Shown piece by piece: positions 40,858-48,664 of a stretch of DNA of 64,000 bases. Location of the stretch: positions 1,513 to 65,512 of the forward strand of contig DATAVK010000137.1 in assembly GCA_036267755.1 (NCBI GenBank), given 5' to 3'. Made by a program: the position numbers and the translations under genes. The notes beneath the pieces were generated by a model. The model did not search any database, was not told the DNA's origin, and saw only the letters and a program-made list of their open reading frames with translations. Origin of the DNA: Mycobacteriales bacterium (GTDB lineage: Bacteria > Actinomycetota > Actinomycetes > JAFAQI01). Position 1 is the stretch's first letter, and every line of letters starts with the position of its first letter.

Positions 40858-42342
40858 TCAGGCAAGATGCATCGAGTCGAGCATCCGGCCGAAGTCCTCG
40901 GTCGCCTTGACGCTGCCGGCGTTGAGGAACACCACCTCGAACGCGCCGCCGCTGTCGGGAACCAGCACCGCATCGCCGTGGTGACCCCGGATATCGATGT
41001 CGACCTCGACCGCCGTACCGATCGGAAGCTCGATCTCGTGGGGGTTGGTGGCCGGACCGCCGAGCGATGACGACAGGACGCCGTCATCGGTCTGGAGCCG
41101 GGCCTCGATCTCGTCGGCGGTGAGCGCGTTCCGGCTGAGCAGGGGAAGGACCACGACCTCCGCTCCTGACGGCCCGTGCAGGTCCAACGGGGCGGCGCTG
41201 CTCGTTTCCGCCGGATCCGGCGCGGCACTCGACCACCCACCCGGGGCGGTGAACGACACCGGGCCGGCAGAGACGACGTGCGCCGGTGCCAGCACGATCG
41301 TGATGGCGGCAATGGTCAGTACGCCGTTGAAGCCTGCATGCGCGGCCATCGAGGTAGCGAGGCCGCGCTTGAGGTAGATGGCGGCGAAGCCGGCGCCCAT
41401 GAAGCCGTAGTAGACGATGGCGCCGGGGATGAAGTGCCAGATCGCGAAAGCCAGTGCCGAGCCCACGATCGCCAGGCCCTTGCCTCGCGGCAGCAGCGCC
41501 TCCAGCAGCAAGCCGCGGAACAGGGTCTCTTCAACCAATGGCGCCGCGACACACGTGATGAGGACGACCAGCACGATGTGCGTCGGGTCTCCCTCGCTCA
41601 TCAGCAGCAGGAAGCGCGGGTCGGGTGAGAGGTGCCCCACCGCCGTACTCACCAGGAAGAGCAGGACCCCGGACAGGCTGGCGCCCAGGACCAGGCCGGT
41701 GAGCAGCCGGACGACGAGTGACCCGTCGCCCCAGCGCAGCCGGATGCTCGGCGTGATCTGGGACACGACGATGCCGCCGATGACGCCGTAGAACGTCAGC
41801 GTCATCACGATGTCGATCCCGATCAGGACCGACGGCTCCAGGTTGGTGTCCTTGCCGATCAGGATTCCGGCGATCTGCATCACGCCGCCCAGCCCGATGG
41901 CGATCGCGACTAGTCGCAGCGCCCGGCGATCGAGCAACCGACCGTCGCGCCGCGCGTTCTCCTCGGTGTACGCCGGTGCCCTGGCCGGTTGGGCCGGCAC
42001 CCAGACCCCGGGCGGTGGCGGCAGCTGTGGTGGCGGCGGGAGCAGTGGTGGTGGTGGCGGGAACAGTGGTGGCGGTGGCGGCGAAGTCGGTGGGAGGAGC
42101 GGAGCGGACGGTGCCGCGACGACCGGGGCCATGCCGAAGCGATCGGAGCCGGCGTACACCAGCGGTGCGTCCGGGGCGTGCGCCGCGGGGACCGGCGGGG
42201 GCGGCGCAGGCGGGGCTACCGGCAGAGCCGGAGATTCAGGCGGCTGGTAGGCCGGCGGCGGCGTAGTGATCCGCTGGTAACACTGCCCGCACCATGCCGC
42301 GCCCGCGGGCACCGCGGCGCCGCACTGCGAGCATGGGGACAC
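40858..42342 (-). CDS. CPBP family intramembrane glutamic endopeptidase (CAAX protease/Abi) with N-terminal zinc ribbon, Pro-rich linker and an extra C-terminal domain
   Basis: 494-aa ORF with the zinc ribbon CSQCG...WCGQC and a PPPP-rich region. The CPBP motifs are EETLFRG (EExxxR), FAIWH (FxxxH) and HAGFN (HxxxN). About 150 aa follow the last TM. Confidence 0.8.
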   Translation of the reverse strand: MSPCSQCGAAVPAGAAWCGQCYQRITTPPPAYQPPESPALPVAPPAPPPPVPAAHAPDAPLVYAGSDRFGMAPVVAAPSAPLLPPTSPPPPPLFPPPPPLLPPPPQLPPPPGVWVPAQPARAPAYTEENARRDGRLLDRRALRLVAIAIGLGGVMQIAGILIGKDTNLEPSVLIGIDIVMTLTFYGVIGGIVVSQITPSIRLRWGDGSLVVRLLTGLVLGASLSGVLLFLVSTAVGHLSPDPRFLLLMSEGDPTHIVLVVLITCVAAPLVEETLFRGLLLEALLPRGKGLAIVGSALAFAIWHFIPGAIVYYGFMGAGFAAIYLKRGLATSMAAHAGFNGVLTIAAITIVLAPAHVVSAGPVSFTAPGGWSSAAPDPAETSSAAPLDLHGPSGAEVVVLPLLSRNALTADEIEARLQTDDGVLSSSLGGPATNPHEIELPIGTAVEVDIDIRGHHGDAVLVPDSGGAFEVVFLNAGSVKATEDFGRMLDSMHLA

Positions 42343-42366: not shown

Positions 42367-42603
42367 TCACGCTTGACGGTCTTTGGGCGGGGTGGTGATC
42401 AGTCGCAGGGCGAGTGTGGGGCACAACGTCACAGCCCGCCGGGCGTGCCGGTGCAGTGCGGAAGGCACTGGCGAGCCGGCCCGCTCCGCCGCCGTCAGCT
42501 GCGGAAACCCCCACTCGTCGAGCCGGATCAGTTCCGGCAACAGCTCGGCGCAGCCGCCGTGGCCGTCGCACCGGGTCGGATCGAGCTGCAGCCGCTCGCT
42601 CAT
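42367..42603 (-). CDS. Small ferredoxin (single Fe-S cluster type)
   Basis: 78-aa ORF with the Cys pattern RCDGHGGCAE...LCP. The start ATG overlaps the upstream stop (ATGA at 42600-42603). Confidence 0.7.
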   Translation of the reverse strand: MSERLQLDPTRCDGHGGCAELLPELIRLDEWGFPQLTAAERAGSPVPSALHRHARRAVTLCPTLALRLITTPPKDRQA

Positions 42604-43892
42604 CGGAGCGCTCCCAGGTCAGATACACCCGGTGTCGGCAGGAATGGCCGGCCACCTGGCCTGGAGCATCGACCGGCCAGGTGCTGCTCCACCTCGGGGC
42701 CGAACGCGGTCAGGGCGCTGGCGAGCAACCGAACGCTCCCGTCCGGGTGATGACAGGCACCCCGGCCGACGACCAGGCCCGCCCAGCGCCGCAGGTTGCC
42801 GAGCACGTCGGGCCTGGCCCGTCCGGACGCGAGGTCGGCCATCGCGACGGCGATCCGGGGCAGCCCGTTGAGACACGGGCCGCACTGGCCGGCCGACTCG
42901 AGGGCCAGGTAGCGCAACAACCTCGCCGTCTCCACGACGCCGCAGCGGTCGGGCGGCAGGACGGCCAGCACTCCGGCGCCGCGACTGGCTCCGACCGCGG
43001 CCAGCTCATCGTCATCGAGCCGGAGCTGGGCCGCCGCGGAGCGCGACACCCAGGCGCCGTGGTACCCGCCAATGAGGACGGCTTCCGAGTCGGTCACCGG
43101 GAGCAGGCTCGACAGCCTGGTTCCGATCGCGACTTCCCGAACCCCAGCAGGCGAACCGTCCCGGTGCACCGTGACCAGCATCGAGCCGGGAGCCGTCGCC
43201 GTACCCACGGCACGGAACCAAGTAGCACCGAACCGAGCCGCCAGCGCCAGATGAGCGAGGGTCTCCACGTTGCTCACCAAGGTCGGGCGGCCGCCGACGC
43301 CCCGCTCGCTGACCAGATCCGGGGTGTACGTCGGAATCGCGTCGCCACCGGCCAGGCGGTGCACCACCGCGGACTCTTCACCGGCGATGAACCGCGGCGC
43401 GACCTGGACCAGCGTCACCGGCACCGGGTCGAGGCGCCGGGCGGACCGCTCGGTGAGCGCCTGCGCCGCCGCGCGGACCAGGACGGTGTCAGACCGGACG
43501 AACAGGTAGGCCGTGGTAGCGCCGGTGGCAGCGGCCGCGACGCGCAGACCGTCCAGCACGAGATGCGGTGCCTGGCTGAGCAGCACGCGGTCCTTGATGC
43601 TCGCCGGTTCACCTTCGGCGGCGTTGGCCACGACCACCGCGGCCGATCCACGTCTGGATGCGGCGGACTGCACAGCGGCCAGCTTGCGGGCCAGCGGGAA
43701 CGCGCCGCCGCCACGGCCGAGCAGGCCGGCCGCGGCCGCGAGCTCGATCGGGTCGTCGACGAGGCCGAGCATCCCGAATCGCTCGTGATGCGCAGCGAGA
43801 CCGACCGGCCCCGTCGCGGCGCCGGCCAGCAGCCGAGGCAGCTCATCGGCCCTCGGCGGGACCGCGCTCGAGGTGAGCAGACCGGCGCTCAC
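42600..43892 (-). CDS. NuoF-like NADH-binding flavoprotein (NADH-ubiquinone oxidoreductase-F Fe-S binding region family)
   Basis: ORF 42600..44465 trimmed to the GTG at 43892, a GTGA overlap. Motifs are GRGGGAFPLARKL, ANAAEGEPASIKDR, ESAGQCGPCLNG and GRGACHH. Confidence 0.8.
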   Translation of the reverse strand: MSAGLLTSSAVPPRADELPRLLAGAATGPVGLAAHHERFGMLGLVDDPIELAAAAGLLGRGGGAFPLARKLAAVQSAASRRGSAAVVVANAAEGEPASIKDRVLLSQAPHLVLDGLRVAAAATGATTAYLFVRSDTVLVRAAAQALTERSARRLDPVPVTLVQVAPRFIAGEESAVVHRLAGGDAIPTYTPDLVSERGVGGRPTLVSNVETLAHLALAARFGATWFRAVGTATAPGSMLVTVHRDGSPAGVREVAIGTRLSSLLPVTDSEAVLIGGYHGAWVSRSAAAQLRLDDDELAAVGASRGAGVLAVLPPDRCGVVETARLLRYLALESAGQCGPCLNGLPRIAVAMADLASGRARPDVLGNLRRWAGLVVGRGACHHPDGSVRLLASALTAFGPEVEQHLAGRCSRPGGRPFLPTPGVSDLGALR

Positions 43893-44482
43893 CTCCGGGT
43901 CCCGACGGCCTCGGCCGCAGCCAGCTGCACGACCACCCGCCGCCGAGGCGGCACGTGACGCAGCGCGTCGACGAGCCGCCAGCCGGCAGCTCCGGCGACA
44001 GCGGCCACGCATACCACCGAGATCAGGAGCAGGACGCCGGACTGCAGGTCCGAGGCAGCGCCGATCCCATGCACGACGGCAAGTGGATACATTGCATAGT
44101 TCAACACGTGGACGGCTCGCCAGGTCCGGTGCCCGATCCGTTCCCGGAGCAGCGACGTGACGACGACCGCCAGCATGATGTCGAGGCTGAGCGCCCCGAG
44201 CCCCATCCAGACCGGTTCGTAGTGGGACGTGAACGGCACCACCACTGAGAGCCACGAGATGCTCACGAACGGGTCGAGCACCGCAGTGGCGACGTGGATC
44301 ACGAGCAGTACGACGGCGAGCAGCGACGCGTTGCGGTGCAGGCCCGTGACGGCGAACGACGGCAGCCACTGCACCCGGGCCCGGGAGTGGATCAGGATGC
44401 CGAGGACAGCGGTAAACGACAGCAATACCAACAGAACCATGCCCGTGGAACGGCTGAGGTACCACAGCACCGAGCTGCTCAT
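43889..44482 (-). CDS. Ferric reductase-like transmembrane (di-haem b type) domain protein
   Basis: ORF 43889..45052 trimmed to the ATG at 44482 (MSSSVLWYLSRSTGMVLLVLL...). It has six TM-like helices and two His-X13-His pairs (GLHRNASLLAVVLLVIH and VHVLNYAMYPLAVVH). Confidence 0.75.
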   Translation of the reverse strand: MSSSVLWYLSRSTGMVLLVLLSFTAVLGILIHSRARVQWLPSFAVTGLHRNASLLAVVLLVIHVATAVLDPFVSISWLSVVVPFTSHYEPVWMGLGALSLDIMLAVVVTSLLRERIGHRTWRAVHVLNYAMYPLAVVHGIGAASDLQSGVLLLISVVCVAAVAGAAGWRLVDALRHVPPRRRVVVQLAAAEAVGTRR

Positions 44483-45441
44483 GGGGTAACCAGGCCTGCG
44501 GGCTGCGGCCAGCCCGCGGTGCGCACGACGTCGCCGGATTGGTCGACGAGCCGCGCCGCGAATCCGCGCTGGGTCAGCCAGGCCGGCGCTTCGGCACCCC
44601 GGACGATCGAGGCCGTGCTCGCGACGTTCGCCGCGAGACAGGTCGGTGCTGCGACCGACACGGTCCGCCACGTCGAGGCCACCGGTAGCCCGGACCGAGG
44701 GTCGAGGATGTGGTGCAGCAGCCGGCCGCCCCGCACCCAGCGCCGCGCCATGGTGCTCGACGTCGCGAGAGCGCCTTCGTGCAGGCACACCGTCTCGGTG
44801 GGCCCGTCGACCGCCTCGTCCACCGGGCCGGTCACGTCCTGGACTCGGATCGTCCAGCCGGAGTCGGGCGCGGTCCCGGCGGTCGCGATGTCGCCACCGA
44901 GCCCGACCAGGACGCCGCATCCGAGCGCGTCGTGGATCCGGGCCGCGGCCAGGTCGGCGGCGAGCGCCTTCGCGGTGGCCCCGAGGTCGATCCGGATCCC
45001 GCGCGGGACCCGCGCGATGCCCGTGCTTCGGTCCAGCTCGATGCGCCGCCACCCGGGCACCGGGCGTCGTACCACGCGGACCGACGTACCGTTCGGCGCC
45101 AGCAACGAGAAGTCACGGTCGTAGCCGAGCTCGACCATGGCTGATCCGACGGTCGGGTCCACCAGCCCGTCGGTGGCGGCGGCCGCGTCGAGCCCGGCTG
45201 CCAGGGCCCGGGTCAGCAGCGGGCTCAAACGGACCTCCGCTCCGTCGGCGGCGTCAAGCCGGGCCAGCTCGGAGTCCGGCCGGAACCGGCTGCAGGCCGC
45301 GTCGATTGCCGCGAGCTCCGCGTCGAGGATCCGCCGAGCGGCGGGAAGCTGCCCGGCATCGGTCACAACGAGCCGCACCCGAGTGCCTAGGGCCTCGAAG
45401 TCCGCCGCCGTACGCCGCTCGATCGTCGGCGCCGACATCAC
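44479..45441 (-). CDS. apbE: FAD:protein FMN transferase (ApbE family)
   Basis: 320-aa ORF with SRFRPDSELARLN-like SRFRPDSELARLD, DPTVGSAM, IDLGATAKALAAD and GLGGDIATAG. Confidence 0.9.
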   Translation of the reverse strand: MMSAPTIERRTAADFEALGTRVRLVVTDAGQLPAARRILDAELAAIDAACSRFRPDSELARLDAADGAEVRLSPLLTRALAAGLDAAAATDGLVDPTVGSAMVELGYDRDFSLLAPNGTSVRVVRRPVPGWRRIELDRSTGIARVPRGIRIDLGATAKALAADLAAARIHDALGCGVLVGLGGDIATAGTAPDSGWTIRVQDVTGPVDEAVDGPTETVCLHEGALATSSTMARRWVRGGRLLHHILDPRSGLPVASTWRTVSVAAPTCLAANVASTASIVRGAEAPAWLTQRGFAARLVDQSGDVVRTAGWPQPAGLVTP

Positions 45442-45770
45442 GAGCCGCCCGAGGTCGCGTCCGAGCTCGACGAGCCTGATGAGGACGACGAGCCGTCCGA
45501 GCCCGACGAGGATGATGTGCCGTCCGAGCTGCTGCCGGATTGGGTCCCGGGAGCAGTGATCGAACTACCCGAGCCGGACCCGGAACCGACGGCGCTCTGA
45601 TCGGTCCCGCTGTTGCCCGACTTGGTCGTCTTCGTGGTCGTGGCGTGCGCCGTTGACGCGTCGTGTACGGCGAGGACCGCGACACCCGCTCCGGCTGCGG
45701 CCACCAGGCCGGCGGTCGCCGCCGTCAGTCGCCGCATCCCGCGCTGCCGAGCCGATCGGGTCGCTGTCAT
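45438..45770 (-). CDS. Small exported Ser/Gly-rich protein (signal/TM anchor plus low-complexity tail ending DATSGGS)
   Basis: 110-aa ORF with an RR-containing signal (QRGMRRLTAATAGLVAAAGAGVAVLAV). The rest is S/G/T/D-rich. The stop overlaps the apbE start (ATGA). Third positions are G/C-rich. Confidence 0.5.
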   Translation of the reverse strand: MTATRSARQRGMRRLTAATAGLVAAAGAGVAVLAVHDASTAHATTTKTTKSGNSGTDQSAVGSGSGSGSSITAPGTQSGSSSDGTSSSSGSDGSSSSSGSSSSDATSGGS

Positions 45771-46964: not shown

Positions 46965-47054
46965 TGGCGGTGGAGGTGGGATTTGAACCCACGGAGGAGT
47001 TGCCCCCTCACACGCTTTCGAGGCGTGCTCCTTCGGCCGCTCGGACACTCCACC
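46965..47054 (-). tRNA. tRNA-Ser (anticodon CGA), CCA encoded
   Basis: The minus strand reads GGTGGAGTGTCCGAGCGGCCGAAGGAGCACGCCTCGAAAGCGTGTGAGGGGGCAACTCCTCCGTGGGTTCAAATCCCACCTCCACCGCCA. It has the anticodon loop CTCGAAA and a long variable arm. Confidence 0.9.
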
Positions 47055-47545: not shown

Positions 47546-48070
47546 TCACTGACCGCGCAACCGCTCGAGCACGTCGAGGCAGCCAGCGGCCTCGCAGACC
47601 TCGGCGATCACGTCGCCGGGCAGCACGCTCTCCGCCGCGCACAACGCGAGCAGTCGCGCGGCCGTCGTTCCGAGATCGCTGAGCAGCGACGCGTCGCCGA
47701 CCGGTTCGCCGTCGATGCTGGCCCCCTGATCGTCGTCGTCGGGGTCGGTGCCGCCGTCGTCCGGTTCCTCGCTCTCGTCGACCGGCTCACGGTCGACCGC
47801 GGCCTCGCCGAGCACGGCCGCCAGGTCGCTCGTCTCGAGCACCCGGGCGTCGGAGACGAACACCCGTGGCTCGTCGTCCGCGTCGAGGCGCAGCACGCCG
47901 ACCCATTCGTCGTCCTCCTCGAGAGCGAGCAGGACGACATCCGCGTCGTCACCGACGGTGTCGCGCACCAGCTCGACCATGCCGTCCAGGTCCTCGACAT
48001 CGTCGAGCACCAGCTCGTCGCCGACCCAGCCCGTCGCATCACGGGCAAACGCCGTCGCGATGTAGCTCAC
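47546..48070 (-). CDS. tRNA adenosine deaminase-associated protein (actinobacterial conserved acidic protein)
   Basis: 174-aa ORF (GTG start), highly acidic, immediately upstream of tadA. This is the family defined by that neighbourhood. Confidence 0.7.
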   Translation of the reverse strand: MSYIATAFARDATGWVGDELVLDDVEDLDGMVELVRDTVGDDADVVLLALEEDDEWVGVLRLDADDEPRVFVSDARVLETSDLAAVLGEAAVDREPVDESEEPDDGGTDPDDDDQGASIDGEPVGDASLLSDLGTTAARLLALCAAESVLPGDVIAEVCEAAGCLDVLERLRGQ

Positions 48071-48166: not shown

Positions 48167-48664
48167 TCAGCGCGTCGACGCATCCAGCGCCCGGTCGTAG
48201 ACATCGGCGAATCCCAACCGATCAGCGATGGTCAGCAGCATCTCGTCGGCGTACGCATCGAGGTCGGCGAGGACGGCTCCGAGCTCCATCTCACTCAGGC
48301 CGAGGTCGGCGAAGATGGACAGGTCGCCCGCCGGCCACACGTCCTCGAGATCGTCGTCGCCTGGTGTCTGGATGCCGAGATGATCAACGACCTGCCGCGC
48401 CAGGTCCCAGGCGACCGCGGCGGTGACGTCGGAGAGCAGCGCCTGTACGGCGGTACCCCGGACCCGGATCGCGACGAAGAACTCGTCGGCGACGTTCACC
48501 AGCGCGATCGCGCCAGTCTCGCCCGGTTGCTGGCGCAGGACGGCGACGAGGGAGTCCAGGTCGTCGCACACCGTCACCGGAAGCAGCCCAGACTGCCAGA
48601 CGCCGTCCTCCCGGTAGACCAGAACGGCGATGCTGTCCTCGCTGTCGATACCCATCGCGCGCAT
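48167..48664 (-). CDS. tRNA adenosine deaminase-associated protein paralogue
   Basis: 165-aa ORF with the same architecture as 47546..48070: an N-terminal beta-rich part with W/G, then an acidic linker and a helical C-terminus. Confidence 0.7.
   Translation of the reverse strand: MRAMGIDSEDSIAVLVYREDGVWQSGLLPVTVCDDLDSLVAVLRQQPGETGAIALVNVADEFFVAIRVRGTAVQALLSDVTAAVAWDLARQVVDHLGIQTPGDDDLEDVWPAGDLSIFADLGLSEMELGAVLADLDAYADEMLLTIADRLGFADVYDRALDASTR

What the first reader, a model, noticed from the sequence alone, without database searches (positions are those of the whole stretch)
42367..45770. Five-gene translationally coupled operon predicted to move electrons from cytoplasmic NADH across the membrane to an ApbE-serviced acceptor
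The minus-strand order is an exported S/G-rich protein, ApbE flavin transferase, a six-TM ferric-reductase-like protein with two His-X13-His pairs (di-haem), a NuoF-like NADH/FMN/Fe-S protein, then a small ferredoxin. The four junctions are ATGA/GTGA overlaps (45438-45441, 44479-44482, 43889-43892, 42600-42603). ApbE is linked to extracytosolic flavinylated redox modules, and ferric-reductase domains conduct electrons across membranes, so this reads as an NADH-driven trans-membrane electron conduit. Two features are unusual. First, the expected FMN_bind-domain substrate is missing and replaced by a low-complexity protein. Second, the NuoF-like N3 motif reads ESAGQCGPC, with Ala where the first Cys of ESCGxCxPC normally sits.
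Basis: partly seen in the sequence, partly recalled or inferred. Interest (0 to 1): 0.6.

Follow-up and report, generated by a model that had tools for sequence, protein, structure and literature searches.

The report
Electron-export operon with flavin-tail protein
This soil actinobacterial operon most likely carries electrons from NADH across the membrane, and its "missing" flavin carrier is probably the small floppy first protein, whose last seven residues look like the tag that the enzyme ApbE uses to attach a flavin.

Summary
The five minus-strand genes, their order, the four 4-nt overlaps and the ESAGQCGPC motif are all present as described. Two details are wrong. The haem histidines are spaced H-x13-H and H-x12-H, as in NADPH oxidases. 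The membrane protein models as five transmembrane helices, not six.

The gene set belongs to a catalogued but untested class: MsrQ-like flavinylation clusters with a NuoF-like protein (Meheust 2021). In 86 related loci the core of ferric-reductase protein, NuoF-like protein and ferredoxin is essentially invariant.

Neither "unusual" feature is a local oddity. Ala in place of the first N3 cysteine is a family hallmark (115 of 121 homologues). The low-complexity protein is itself conserved:
- a basic N-terminus and one hydrophobic anchor;
- a 30-96 residue S/T/G-rich linker;
- a conserved extreme C-terminus, T-S-G-[A/G]-S-stop.

In the window this tail reads D-A-T-S-G-G-S, which fits the ApbE flavinylation motif D-x-x-[S/T]-G-A-[S/T] at six of seven positions. 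None of 56 such proteins matches FMN_bind.

ApbE has no signal peptide in any of 48 loci checked, so flavin attachment probably happens in the cytoplasm before export.

My reading is a known kind of conduit with an undescribed, domain-less flavin carrier. No experiment has tested this.

The parts
45438..45770 (-). Small 'tail' protein, 110 aa. It has a basic N-terminus, one hydrophobic anchor, a 68-residue S/T/G-rich disordered linker and a C-terminal flavinylation-like motif.
   Evidence: - Translation and no Pfam hit.
- AlphaFold2 gives one helix (residues 3-38) and coil for the rest, pLDDT 54.
- Indels against L001 and L003 are all in frame.
- The same architecture occurs in 56 of 84 loci.
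45657..45770 (-). N-terminal basic region (RSARQRGMRR) plus the hydrophobic anchor or signal segment, residues 1-38 of the tail protein.
   Evidence: - Best 19-residue hydrophobic window scores 2.04 on the Kyte-Doolittle scale, and the N-terminal net charge is +5.
- Predicted as a helix, residues 3-38.
- An RR pair lies next to the hydrophobic segment in 37 of 56 relatives.
45441..45461 (-). C-terminal heptapeptide D104-A-T-S-G-G-S110, followed by the stop codon. This is the proposed ApbE flavinylation site, at Ser110.
   Evidence: - In register with D-x-x-[S/T]-G-A-[S/T] (review PMC12052999).
- Conservation over 54 tails: T at -5 in 47, S at -4 in 52, G at -3 in 54 (using four codons), A or G at -2 in 52, S at -1 in 54 (using three codons).
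- Background rate of this ending among 18,237 ORFs is 0.41%, and most of those are the tail proteins themselves.
44479..45441 (-). ApbE-family FAD:protein FMN transferase, 320 aa, with no signal peptide.
   Evidence: - Pfam ApbE, E = 2e-51, matching residues 18-295.
- Aligns to solved ApbE structures, and the HH237/238-ILDP motif is conserved.
- The stretch ahead of the conserved domain is hydrophilic, with a median of 12 aa in 48 loci.
43889..44482 (-). Ferric-reductase-domain (MsrQ/NOX-like) membrane protein, 197 aa. Predicted di-haem b, with H49/H125 as the inner pair and H63/H138 as the outer pair.
   Evidence: - Pfam PF01794, 32.1 bits against a cut-off of 28.
- All four His are invariant in 51-84 homologues.
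- AlphaFold2 model with pLDDT 92.8 and five transmembrane helices.
- Best fold matches are DUOX1, SpNOX, STEAP1/2 and NOX5.
42600..43892 (-). NuoF-like NADH/FMN/Fe-S protein, 430 aa.
   Evidence: - Pfam Complex1_51K plus NADH_4Fe-4S.
- Aligns to Thermus Nqo1 (2fug_1) and HydB with the FMN/NADH motifs kept.
- NCBIfam nuoF scores 171 bits against a cut-off of 559, so it is not a true NuoF.
42873..42899 (-). ESAGQCGPC, the N3-type cluster motif with Ala334 in place of the first Cys.
   Evidence: - Ala is present in 115 of 121 homologues.
- C317, C337, C340, C380 and C409, and H278, H382 and H404, are invariant.
- C337, C340 and C380 align to the Nqo1 N3 ligands.
42367..42603 (-). Single-cluster ferredoxin, 78 aa, with the motif C13-x2-H16-x2-C19 ... 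C62-P.
   Evidence: - Pfam Fer4_15, E = 3.5e-13.
- The three Cys are invariant and the His is present in 87% of 83 homologues.
- Found directly downstream of the NuoF-like gene in 85 of 86 loci.

Best explanation
This is a conserved actinobacterial five-gene operon for sending electrons from cytoplasmic NADH to the outer face of the membrane.

**Proposed electron path**
1. The NuoF-like protein oxidises NADH at a non-covalent FMN.
2. Electrons pass to its Fe-S cluster. Three of the N3 cysteines are kept, and an alternative fourth ligand is probably C317 or C409.
3. They pass to the small three-Cys ferredoxin.
4. The ferredoxin feeds the inner haem (H49/H125) of the ferric-reductase-type membrane protein.
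5. Electrons cross to the outer haem (H63/H138).
6. The final carrier is an FMN attached covalently by ApbE to the terminal Ser110 of the first-gene protein. That protein has no flavin-binding fold. It has only a membrane anchor or signal segment, a 68-residue disordered S/T/G-rich linker and the tail D-A-T-S-G-G-S.

**Where flavinylation happens**
ApbE has no signal peptide and is translationally coupled to the tail gene. Flavinylation therefore most likely takes place in the cytoplasm on the free C-terminus. The short unfolded protein would be exported afterwards.

**What is shown and what is inferred**
- Shown here: gene content, translational coupling, conservation of the motifs, absence of an ApbE signal peptide, and lack of a fold in the tail protein.
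- Inferred: cofactor content, direction of electron flow, flavinylation of Ser110, export after modification, and the still unknown outside acceptor. Ferric iron, a quinone or humic substance, or an envelope redox enzyme are candidates.
For: **Domains and coupling**
- Domain calls and the 4-nt overlaps are confirmed.
- The FRD, NuoF-like and ferredoxin genes occur in this order in 85-86 of 86 loci. These span Streptomyces, Frankia, Streptosporangiaceae, Klenkia, Rhodococcus, Gaiellaceae and Nanopelagicales.
- ApbE is present in 68 of 86 loci, mostly directly upstream.

**Tail protein**
- It sits directly upstream of ApbE. Where ApbE is absent it sits directly upstream of FRD. The same architecture is seen in 56 of 84 loci.
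- The last five residues are almost invariant at the protein level while their codons vary.
- 50 of 86 loci end in [ST]G[AG][ST]-stop, against 0.41% of all ORFs in the same DNA.
- The motif persists where the next gene's conserved domain begins 95-175 nt after the stop codon, so gene overlap is not what keeps it.
- None of 56 tail proteins hits FMN_bind or any flavin family.
- AlphaFold2 finds no fold beyond one helix.
- Indels between close relatives are all in frame.

**Literature**
- The minimal ApbE motif is seven residues and works best at a protein terminus.
- Asp-to-Ala has only a minor effect, and Ser is accepted as the attachment residue (PMC12052999).

**Other components**
- ApbE has conserved catalytic-region motifs and a hydrophilic N-terminus (median 12 aa ahead of the conserved domain) in 48 loci.
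- FRD has four invariant His with NOX-like spacing, and its fold matches NOX, STEAP and DUOX.
- The NuoF-like protein keeps the FMN/NADH motifs in alignment with Nqo1.

**Expression**
- Contigs from a soil metatranscriptome, at 95-99% identity, cover the tail gene, the tail/ApbE junction, FRD and the NuoF-like gene.
Against: - No biochemical data exist for any member of this family.
- The window's tail has Gly where the canonical motif has Ala. The only substitution at that position that I found reported is Ala-to-Val, which halves flavinylation.
- About 40% of tails lack the leading Asp.
- A cytoplasmic ApbE acting on an exported substrate has no precedent that I could find.
- Part of the Gly-Gly/Ala conservation may come from a ribosome-binding signal for the next gene. 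GGG plus GGA codons make up 32 of 54 at position -3.
- 28 of 84 loci gave no clear tail protein under my filter. Some are truncated contigs, and some have variant endings such as VTSGS, TTHGS or NSNGS.
- The metatranscriptome evidence comes from contigs of a related strain and could include DNA.
Confidence: 0.58

Rival explanations
1. The conduit reading is right, but ApbE's real substrate is a conventional FMN_bind or DUF2271 protein encoded elsewhere in the genome. The small protein would then be only an accessory membrane subunit or spacer, for example a single-helix partner of the cytochrome.
For: - Meheust 2021 states that MsrQ-like clusters typically include an FMN-binding-domain gene.
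- The window's tail departs from the canonical motif, with Gly in place of Ala.
- The rest of the genome could not be searched.
Against: - None of the loci examined shows an FMN_bind gene between or beside the operon genes, and 0 of 56 first-gene proteins hit FMN_bind.
- The only strongly conserved part of the small protein outside the anchor is a heptapeptide in register with the ApbE motif.
- The ApbE here lacks the signal peptide it would need to modify a folded, already exported domain.
Confidence: 0.17
2. ApbE acts wholly in the cytoplasm on one of the soluble operon proteins, for example by fixing the FMN of the NuoF-like protein covalently. This would resemble the cytoplasmic ApbE and fumarate reductase pair of Klebsiella. 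The small protein would be unrelated to flavinylation.
For: - ApbE has no signal peptide.
- Cytoplasmic ApbEs are known (PMC12052999).
- The NuoF-like protein has a local T-G-A-T at residues 123-126.
Against: - That TGAT is not conserved. The family consensus there is V-G-A-x.
- No conserved [ST]G[AG][ST] motif appears in the alignments of FRD, the NuoF-like protein or the ferredoxin.
- The tail gene stays with the FRD, NuoF-like and ferredoxin genes even where ApbE is not adjacent.
Confidence: 0.08
3. The tail's conserved ending is a by-product of translational coupling, that is, a ribosome-binding or restart signal for the next gene. Alternatively, a -1 frameshift at the overlap fuses the anchor and linker to ApbE, producing a membrane-tethered ApbE that faces outward.
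For: - The stop codon is TGA in 54 of 54 tails, and purine-rich Gly codons are enriched at position -3.
- In the window a -1 shift at TCG-TGA would read into the ApbE frame.
Against: - T at -5, S at -4 and S at -1 are conserved through synonymous codon changes.
- The motif is kept in L007, L013 and L015, where the next gene's conserved domain begins 95-175 nt downstream. It is also kept where the next gene is FRD rather than ApbE.
- No slippery heptamer is present at the junction.
Confidence: 0.04

Closest known systems
MsrQ-like flavinylation-associated gene clusters, NuoF-like subtype (Meheust et al. 2021, eLife 10:e66878, PMC8238504)
   Same: - An Actinobacteria-centred cluster of apbE, a PF01794 di-haem membrane protein and a PF10589 NuoF-like protein.
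- Proposed electron transfer from NAD(P)H to the outside.
   Different: - That class is described as typically having an FMN-binding-domain protein. Here and in the relatives there is none.
- The paper reports only 31 such clusters and does not mention the ferredoxin, the tail protein or the signal-less ApbE.
- No member of the class has been tested experimentally.
Engineered Flavin-tag (Tong et al. 2021, reviewed in PMC12052999)
   Same: - A seven-residue D-x-x-[S/T]-G-A-[S/T] peptide at a protein terminus is enough for ApbE to attach FMN.
- No flavin-binding fold is needed.
   Different: - The Flavin-tag is man-made, whereas this would be a natural equivalent.
- The natural tail ends in Ser rather than Thr.
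- It has Gly or Ala at position -2.
- It has D, H, Q or V at position -7.
ApbE-flavinylated FMN_red proteins with unstructured C-terminal extensions (Huang et al. 2024, mSystems, PMC11334425)
   Same: The flavinylation motif lies on a disordered C-terminal extension, and that paper reports in-vitro confirmation of flavinylation for this class (its methods headings and abstract; text).
   Different: In those proteins the tethered FMN folds back into a classical flavin pocket of the same protein. The tail protein here has no folded domain at all.
NADPH oxidase / STEAP / SpNOX ferric-reductase-domain superfamily
   Same: - Bis-His di-haem core with H-x13-H and H-x12-H spacing.
- Best structural matches.
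- Electrons flow from a cytoplasmic nicotinamide dehydrogenase across two stacked haems.
   Different: - There is no fused FNR-type FAD/NADPH domain. The dehydrogenase is a separate NuoF-like protein plus a ferredoxin.
- The model has five rather than six transmembrane helices.
Complex I subunit NuoF / Nqo1 and the HydB-type subunits of bifurcating hydrogenases
   Same: FMN/NADH-binding domain and an N3-type C-terminal cluster domain. The best sequence matches among solved structures have E-values around 1e-38.
   Different: - The first N3 Cys is Ala, and there are extra invariant residues C317, C409, H382 and H404.
- No SLBB domain is called and no NuoE partner lies nearby.
- It scores far below the NCBIfam nuoF cut-off.
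Cytoplasmic ApbE of Klebsiella pneumoniae, which flavinylates a soluble fumarate reductase (cited in PMC12052999)
   Same: An ApbE without a signal peptide that acts in the cytoplasm.
   Different: Its substrate is a cytoplasmic enzyme with an FMN_bind domain. Here the candidate substrate carries an export or anchor signal and has no domain.

Membership tests
MsrQ-like flavinylation-associated cluster (Meheust 2021 operational definition) | A PF01794 gene lies in the same cluster as an apbE or FMN-bind gene. | tested here: met
   PF01794 and PF02424 are called on adjacent, overlapping genes. The definition is quoted.
MsrQ-like flavinylation-associated cluster (Meheust 2021 operational definition) | NuoF-like (PF10589) variant of the cluster. 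| tested here: met
   PF10589, E = 5e-16, on the next gene.
MsrQ-like flavinylation-associated cluster (Meheust 2021 operational definition) | An FMN-binding-domain protein is present in the cluster (typical of the class, not strictly defining). | tested here: not met
   No FMN_bind hit in any of the five proteins. 0 of 56 first-gene proteins in relatives hit FMN_bind.
MsrQ-like flavinylation-associated cluster (Meheust 2021 operational definition) | Extracytosolic flavinylation, shown by a signal peptide on ApbE or on the substrate. | tested here: inconclusive
   ApbE has none. The candidate substrate has a basic N-terminus and a hydrophobic segment. No dedicated signal-peptide predictor was available.
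ApbE FAD:protein FMN transferase | Pfam ApbE domain above the gathering score, with the conserved catalytic-region His. | tested here: met
   175.5 bits against a cut-off of 25.6. HH237/238 is 97% conserved and aligns to the HHILDP / sHviDP motifs of solved ApbEs.
ApbE FAD:protein FMN transferase | Lipoprotein or secretory signal, as in the canonical periplasmic enzyme. | tested here: not met
   The hydrophilic N-terminus is shorter than the mature crystallised constructs. The median stretch ahead of the domain is 12 aa in 48 loci.
ApbE substrate (flavinylation motif) | D-x-x-[S/T]-G-A-[S/T] with a terminal Ser or Thr acceptor. | tested here: inconclusive
   The window has D-A-T-S-G-G-S, which matches six of seven positions with Gly in place of Ala. 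Streptomyces relatives have the exact motif, D-S-T-S-G-A-S.
ApbE substrate (flavinylation motif) | Covalent FMN is actually attached. | not testable with these tools
   This needs a UV-fluorescence gel or mass spectrometry.
ApbE substrate (flavinylation motif) | A known substrate fold (FMN_bind, DUF2271, NqrB/RnfD, Flavodoxin_4 or FMN_red). | tested here: not met
   No Pfam hit. AlphaFold2 gives a single helix plus coil.
Ferric-reductase-domain superfamily (NOX/STEAP/MsrQ) | Four haem-ligating His on two helices, with x13 and x12 spacing. | tested here: met
   H49, H63, H125 and H138 are invariant. They lie on model helices 42-69 and 118-142.
Ferric-reductase-domain superfamily (NOX/STEAP/MsrQ) | Fold similarity to solved members. 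| tested here: met
   The top Foldseek hits are DUOX1, SpNOX, STEAP1/2 and NOX5, with probability 0.99-1.0 and TM-scores of 0.46-0.60. E-values are only 0.015-0.1.
Ferric-reductase-domain superfamily (NOX/STEAP/MsrQ) | Binds two b-type haems. | not testable with these tools
   This needs a redox difference spectrum of the purified protein.
NuoF (complex I 51-kDa subunit) | Equivalog-level score and a four-Cys N3 motif, ESCGxCxPC...C. | tested here: not met
   TIGR01959 scores 171 bits against a cut-off of 559. Ala334 replaces the first Cys.
NuoF (complex I 51-kDa subunit) | FMN/NADH-binding motifs (GRGGxxFP, N-x-x-E-x-EP, GEE). | tested here: met
   These are invariant in 20 homologues and align to Nqo1.
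NuoF (complex I 51-kDa subunit) | A NuoE partner and nuo operon context. | tested here: not met
   The neighbours are the ferredoxin and the FRD protein. None of the five operon proteins hits a NuoE-type family, and none was recorded among the called neighbours of three relatives.
Fer4_15 single-cluster ferredoxin | Pfam domain and the CxxXxxC...CP motif. | tested here: met
   50.5 bits against a cut-off of 22.4. C13, C19 and C62 are invariant and H16 is present in 87%. The cluster type, 3Fe or 4Fe, cannot be tested here.

The most novel reading that the evidence does not exclude
The first-gene proteins would be natural "flavin-tags". They would form a phylum-wide class of ApbE substrates with no flavin-binding fold at all. 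FMN would be esterified to the very last serine of an intrinsically disordered S/T/G-rich chain of 30-96 residues.

A signal-less ApbE would load the flavin in the cytoplasm. This removes any need to export FAD. The unfolded, modified protein would then be exported. The result would be a redox-active flavin on a flexible leash, long enough to reach from the outer haem of the membrane cytochrome into or across the cell wall. It would work as a tethered electron shuttle.
Probability: 0.35. Interest if true: 0.85.

Novelty: new variant of a known kind. Interest (0 to 1): 0.62.

Why it matters
**If the tail is flavinylated**
- It would add a sixth, fold-less class of ApbE substrate.
- It would show that flavin-tagging exists in nature.
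- It would explain how many soil Actinomycetota, Streptomyces included, could deliver cytoplasmic reducing power to the envelope without a folded extracytoplasmic flavoprotein and without exporting FAD.

**It also points to two tractable questions**
- How is an Fe-S cluster held when the first N3 cysteine is replaced?
- What does this widespread conduit reduce outside the cell?

**A practical consequence for annotation**
The tail genes are routinely missed or mis-framed by gene callers. The one I could trace is annotated only as "hypothetical protein". Surveys of flavinylation that rely on Pfam domains will therefore under-count these systems.

Tried and rejected

I therefore could not search the rest of this genome for FMN_bind, DUF2271 or extra ApbE genes.
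- The exact look-up of the NuoF-like protein failed. The public gene call uses a later start (P0006, 390 aa).
- A homologue search with the tail protein returned nothing, probably because of its low complexity.
- Exact look-ups of four Streptomyces tail proteins were not on record.
- The Meheust supplement is stored truncated and gave no NuoF-type cluster rows.
- The consensus promoter and terminator scan found nothing informative.

**A method I replaced**
- My first GC3-based gene caller picked shadow ORFs and over-long starts. I replaced it with stop-to-stop ORFs scored by HMMs built from the window's own proteins.

**Ideas considered and rejected**
- The Ala in ESAGQCGPC as a local mutation. 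It is family-wide.
- TGAT at NuoF-like residues 123-126 as a flavinylation site. It is not conserved.
- A -1 frameshift fusing the tail protein to ApbE. There is no slippery site, and the tail gene occurs without ApbE.
- The tail motif as purely a coupling or ribosome-binding signal. That may contribute at the two Gly/Ala codons, but it cannot explain positions -5, -4 and -1, or loci with 95-175 nt between the stop and the next gene's conserved domain.
- A universal Tat signal. An RR pair is present in only 37 of 56 proteins.

**Not attempted**
- I did not run a structure prediction on the NuoF-like protein. The tool returns no coordinates, so Cys-Cys distances could not be measured.

Full report
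**Observation**

The window is high-GC DNA (68-76% G+C across 38-50 kb). Sequencing-run matches indicate that it comes from a soil metagenome.

On the minus strand five ORFs translate without interruption at the coordinates given:
- a 110-aa small protein (45438-45770)
- ApbE (44479-45441)
- a 197-aa membrane protein (43889-44482)
- a 430-aa NuoF-like protein (42600-43892)
- a 78-aa ferredoxin (42367-42603)

The four junctions are GTGA, ATGA, GTGA and ATGA overlaps, as stated.

Pfam confirms ApbE (2e-51), Ferric_reduct (32.1 bits against a cut-off of 28), Complex1_51K plus NADH_4Fe-4S, and Fer4_15. It finds nothing for the small protein. NCBIfam places the NuoF-like protein far below the nuoF equivalog cut-off, at 171 against 559 bits.

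Two details need correcting. The His pairs are H49-x13-H63 and H125-x12-H138. The membrane protein models with five long helices rather than six.

**A conserved operon, not a local curiosity**

The NuoF-like protein has thousands of homologues. I fetched 80 loci from named genomes and five from metagenomes. I then searched their stop-to-stop ORFs with HMMs built from the window's own proteins.
- FRD immediately precedes the NuoF-like gene in 86 of 86 loci.
- The ferredoxin follows it in 85 of 86.
- ApbE lies within the flank in 68 of 86, mostly directly upstream of FRD.

The hosts include Streptomyces, Streptacidiphilus, Frankia, Streptosporangiaceae, Trebonia, Klenkia, Blastococcus, Rhodococcus, Dermatophilaceae, Nanopelagicales and Gaiellaceae.

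Meheust et al. 2021 already list "MsrQ-like" flavinylation clusters as broadly conserved in Actinobacteria. They mention 31 clusters with a NuoF-like protein. The conduit idea is therefore catalogued, although untested.

**The Ala in the N3 motif**

ES-A-GQCGPC occurs in 115 of 121 homologues. The family has five invariant cysteines (C317, C337, C340, C380, C409) and invariant H278, H382 and H404.

In alignment with Thermus Nqo1, C337, C340 and C380 are N3 ligands 2-4, and Ala334 sits on ligand 1. The FMN/NADH motifs are retained (GRGGxAFP, NAAEGEPAS-KD, AGEESA, SNVET).

This is a distinct NuoF-derived family with a re-wired cluster. It is not a degraded NuoF. Which residue supplies the fourth ligand is unknown. 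C317 and C409 are my candidates, and that is an inference.

**The low-complexity protein**

This is the main result. In the close relatives L001 and L003 the first gene differs from the window by in-frame indels totalling 17 codons or more. It keeps an almost identical N-terminus and the ending ATSGGS-stop.

Across the wider set, the ORF directly upstream of ApbE has one architecture:
- a basic N-terminus, with net charge +1 to +9
- a 19-residue hydrophobic segment, scoring 1.6-2.5 on the Kyte-Doolittle scale
- a 30-96 residue linker that is usually S/T/G-rich (0.28-0.92 of residues)
- a near-invariant C-terminus

Over 54 tails the C-terminal positions read as follows:

| Position | Residues |
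|---|---|
| -7 | D 25, H 11, Q 9 |
| -5 | T 47 |
| -4 | S 52 |
| -3 | G 54, using all four Gly codons |
| -2 | A 27, G 25 |
| -1 | S 54, using three Ser codons |
| stop | TGA 54 |

Streptomyces tails read D-S-T-S-G-A-S. The window reads D-A-T-S-G-G-S.

The published ApbE motif is D-x-x-[S/T]-G-A-[S/T]. Seven residues are sufficient, and a terminal position is best. Asp-to-Ala has only a minor effect, and Ser is an accepted acceptor (PMC12052999).

An ending of [ST]G[AG][ST] occurs in 0.41% of all 18,237 ORFs in the same DNA, and at least 50 of those 75 cases are the tail proteins themselves.

The tail gene is still present, directly upstream of FRD, in loci where ApbE is not adjacent (L007, L008, L013-L015, L041). 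In three of these the next gene's conserved domain begins 95-175 nt after the stop codon. The motif is therefore not only a consequence of gene overlap. The excess of GGG and GGA codons at -3 does suggest some contribution from a ribosome-binding signal.

None of 56 tail proteins matches FMN_bind or any other flavin family. AlphaFold2 with a 56-sequence alignment predicts one helix (residues 3-38) and coil for the rest, with pLDDT 54.

The one tail protein I could trace in public annotation, from Klenkia taihuensis, is a "hypothetical protein". I found no paper that describes this family.

**ApbE location**

The window's ApbE begins 17 residues before the Pfam domain with a hydrophilic peptide. 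It aligns to solved ApbEs from a point earlier than their mature N-termini. The HH-ILDP and ATS motifs are conserved.

In 48 loci the stretch ahead of the conserved domain has a median of 12 aa and a maximum of 38, and it is hydrophilic or acidic. The enzyme is therefore predicted to be cytoplasmic.

The charge distribution of the tail protein predicts that its N-terminus is inside and its C-terminus outside. The simplest way to reconcile the two is that ApbE modifies the free C-terminus before the short unfolded protein is exported. Translational coupling would place the two proteins together. This step is inferred, and I know of no precedent for it.

**The membrane cytochrome**

H49, H63, H125 and H138 are invariant. 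The AlphaFold2 model is confident (pLDDT 92.8, pTM 0.82). It has transmembrane helices at 3-32, 42-69, 90-111, 118-142 and 149-175, and a basic C-terminal helix.

Applying the positive-inside rule to the loops puts H49/H125 near the cytoplasm and H63/H138 near the outside, as in NOX enzymes. The best structural matches are DUOX1, SpNOX, STEAP1/2 and NOX5.

The most conserved non-His residues (D70, P83, F84, S86, Y88, W92) lie on the predicted outer loop. That loop is a plausible docking site for a flavin, which is again an inference.

**Ferredoxin**

C13, C19 and C62 are invariant and H16 is 87% conserved, giving CxxHxxC...CP. This is a three-Cys single-cluster ferredoxin. Whether the cluster is 3Fe-4S or 4Fe-4S cannot be told from sequence.

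**Expression**

One soil metatranscriptome holds contigs at 95-99% identity covering the following:
- the tail gene (45486-45758)
- the tail/ApbE junction (44990-45491)
- FRD
- part of the NuoF-like gene

One difference in that strain, 45441 C>T, is synonymous for the terminal Ser. These are assembler contigs from a related strain and could include DNA, so this is weak support for transcription.

**Mechanism and rivals**

My best reading (confidence 0.58) is the following chain:

NADH → FMN of the NuoF-like protein → its Fe-S cluster → ferredoxin → inner haem → outer haem → FMN on Ser110 of the tail protein → an unknown outside acceptor.

The rivals are:
- a conventional FMN_bind substrate encoded elsewhere (0.17).
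- a purely cytoplasmic ApbE target within the operon (0.08). No conserved motif supports it.
- a coupling-signal or frameshift artefact (0.04).

The remaining probability covers functions I have not thought of.

**Earlier notes of this scan**

After I had reached this reading (notes), a look-up showed that other agents had reached the same "flavin-tail" reading for homologous operons in other genomes. Those are unchecked AI notes. They are not independent evidence.

**Verdict**

The conduit interpretation matches a known, untested class.

Noticed in passing
window 40858-42342 (-): A 494-aa protein starts 24 nt after the ferredoxin stop. It has an N-terminal CxxC...CxxC zinc-ribbon-like motif, a proline-rich region and a multi-pass membrane domain. 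The syntenic gene in L001 and L003 is recorded as PF02517 (Rce1-like CPBP protease). It follows the operon only in the three closest relatives, so it is probably not part of the system.
   Followed up: partly
L009 9570-11882; L074 9142-11731; also L016, L017, L050, L070, L080: In many non-Streptomyces relatives an OmpR-type response regulator and a sensor histidine kinase follow the ferredoxin on the same strand. I recognised them from the sequence, for example the SHELRTPL H-box, and ran no Pfam search. They could regulate the operon, or the arrangement could be mere synteny.
   Followed up: no
L068 5811-6266; L071 479-1045; L079 5805-6245: These loci have a variant first-gene protein. The T(T/S)SG(S/G)G motif is internal and is followed by a conserved segment of about 30 residues. 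In L068 and L071 that segment reads VTVTTTTHTVNGKTVV..VRHV..YHD[NS]. L079 has a related VTSGGSGVT motif but a different ending (...AQWRDN).
   Followed up: no
L003 6087-6437 and 9300-9556; L005 5799-7367; P0006: Public gene calls mishandle this operon.
- In L003 neither the tail gene nor the ferredoxin is called.
- In L005 ApbE is over-extended to 522 aa through the tail gene in the wrong frame.
- The window's NuoF-like gene is called 40 codons short.

This may be why the tail family has gone unnoticed.
   Followed up: partly
window 46965-47054 (-): A tRNA-Ser (anticodon CGA) lies between the tadA-like deaminase gene and the epimerase-family gene upstream of the operon.
   Followed up: yes
window 47546-48070 and 48167-48664 (-): Two adjacent paralogous genes lie between the sulfite-reductase gene cluster and tadA. 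The syntenic genes in L001 and L003 are recorded as PF27101 (Rv3753c family).
   Followed up: no
window 45273-45423: Summed contig depth in DNA run X1 jumps to about 260x over the 5' part of ApbE, against 12-30x elsewhere. This presumably reflects many related soil strains or organisms sharing this stretch.
   Followed up: no
tail proteins of 56 loci (alignment A2): The anchors fall into two sub-types. One is an "RR" type (AVRRGxRR-TAAxAAAVTLAAAAG, found in Streptomyces and the window). The other is an "LPGS" type (AARxxGRxxVRSTT...LxLPGSTH, found in Streptosporangiaceae, Trebonia and uncultured lineages). The cytoplasmic N-region is itself conserved, which hints at a binding partner.
   Followed up: partly
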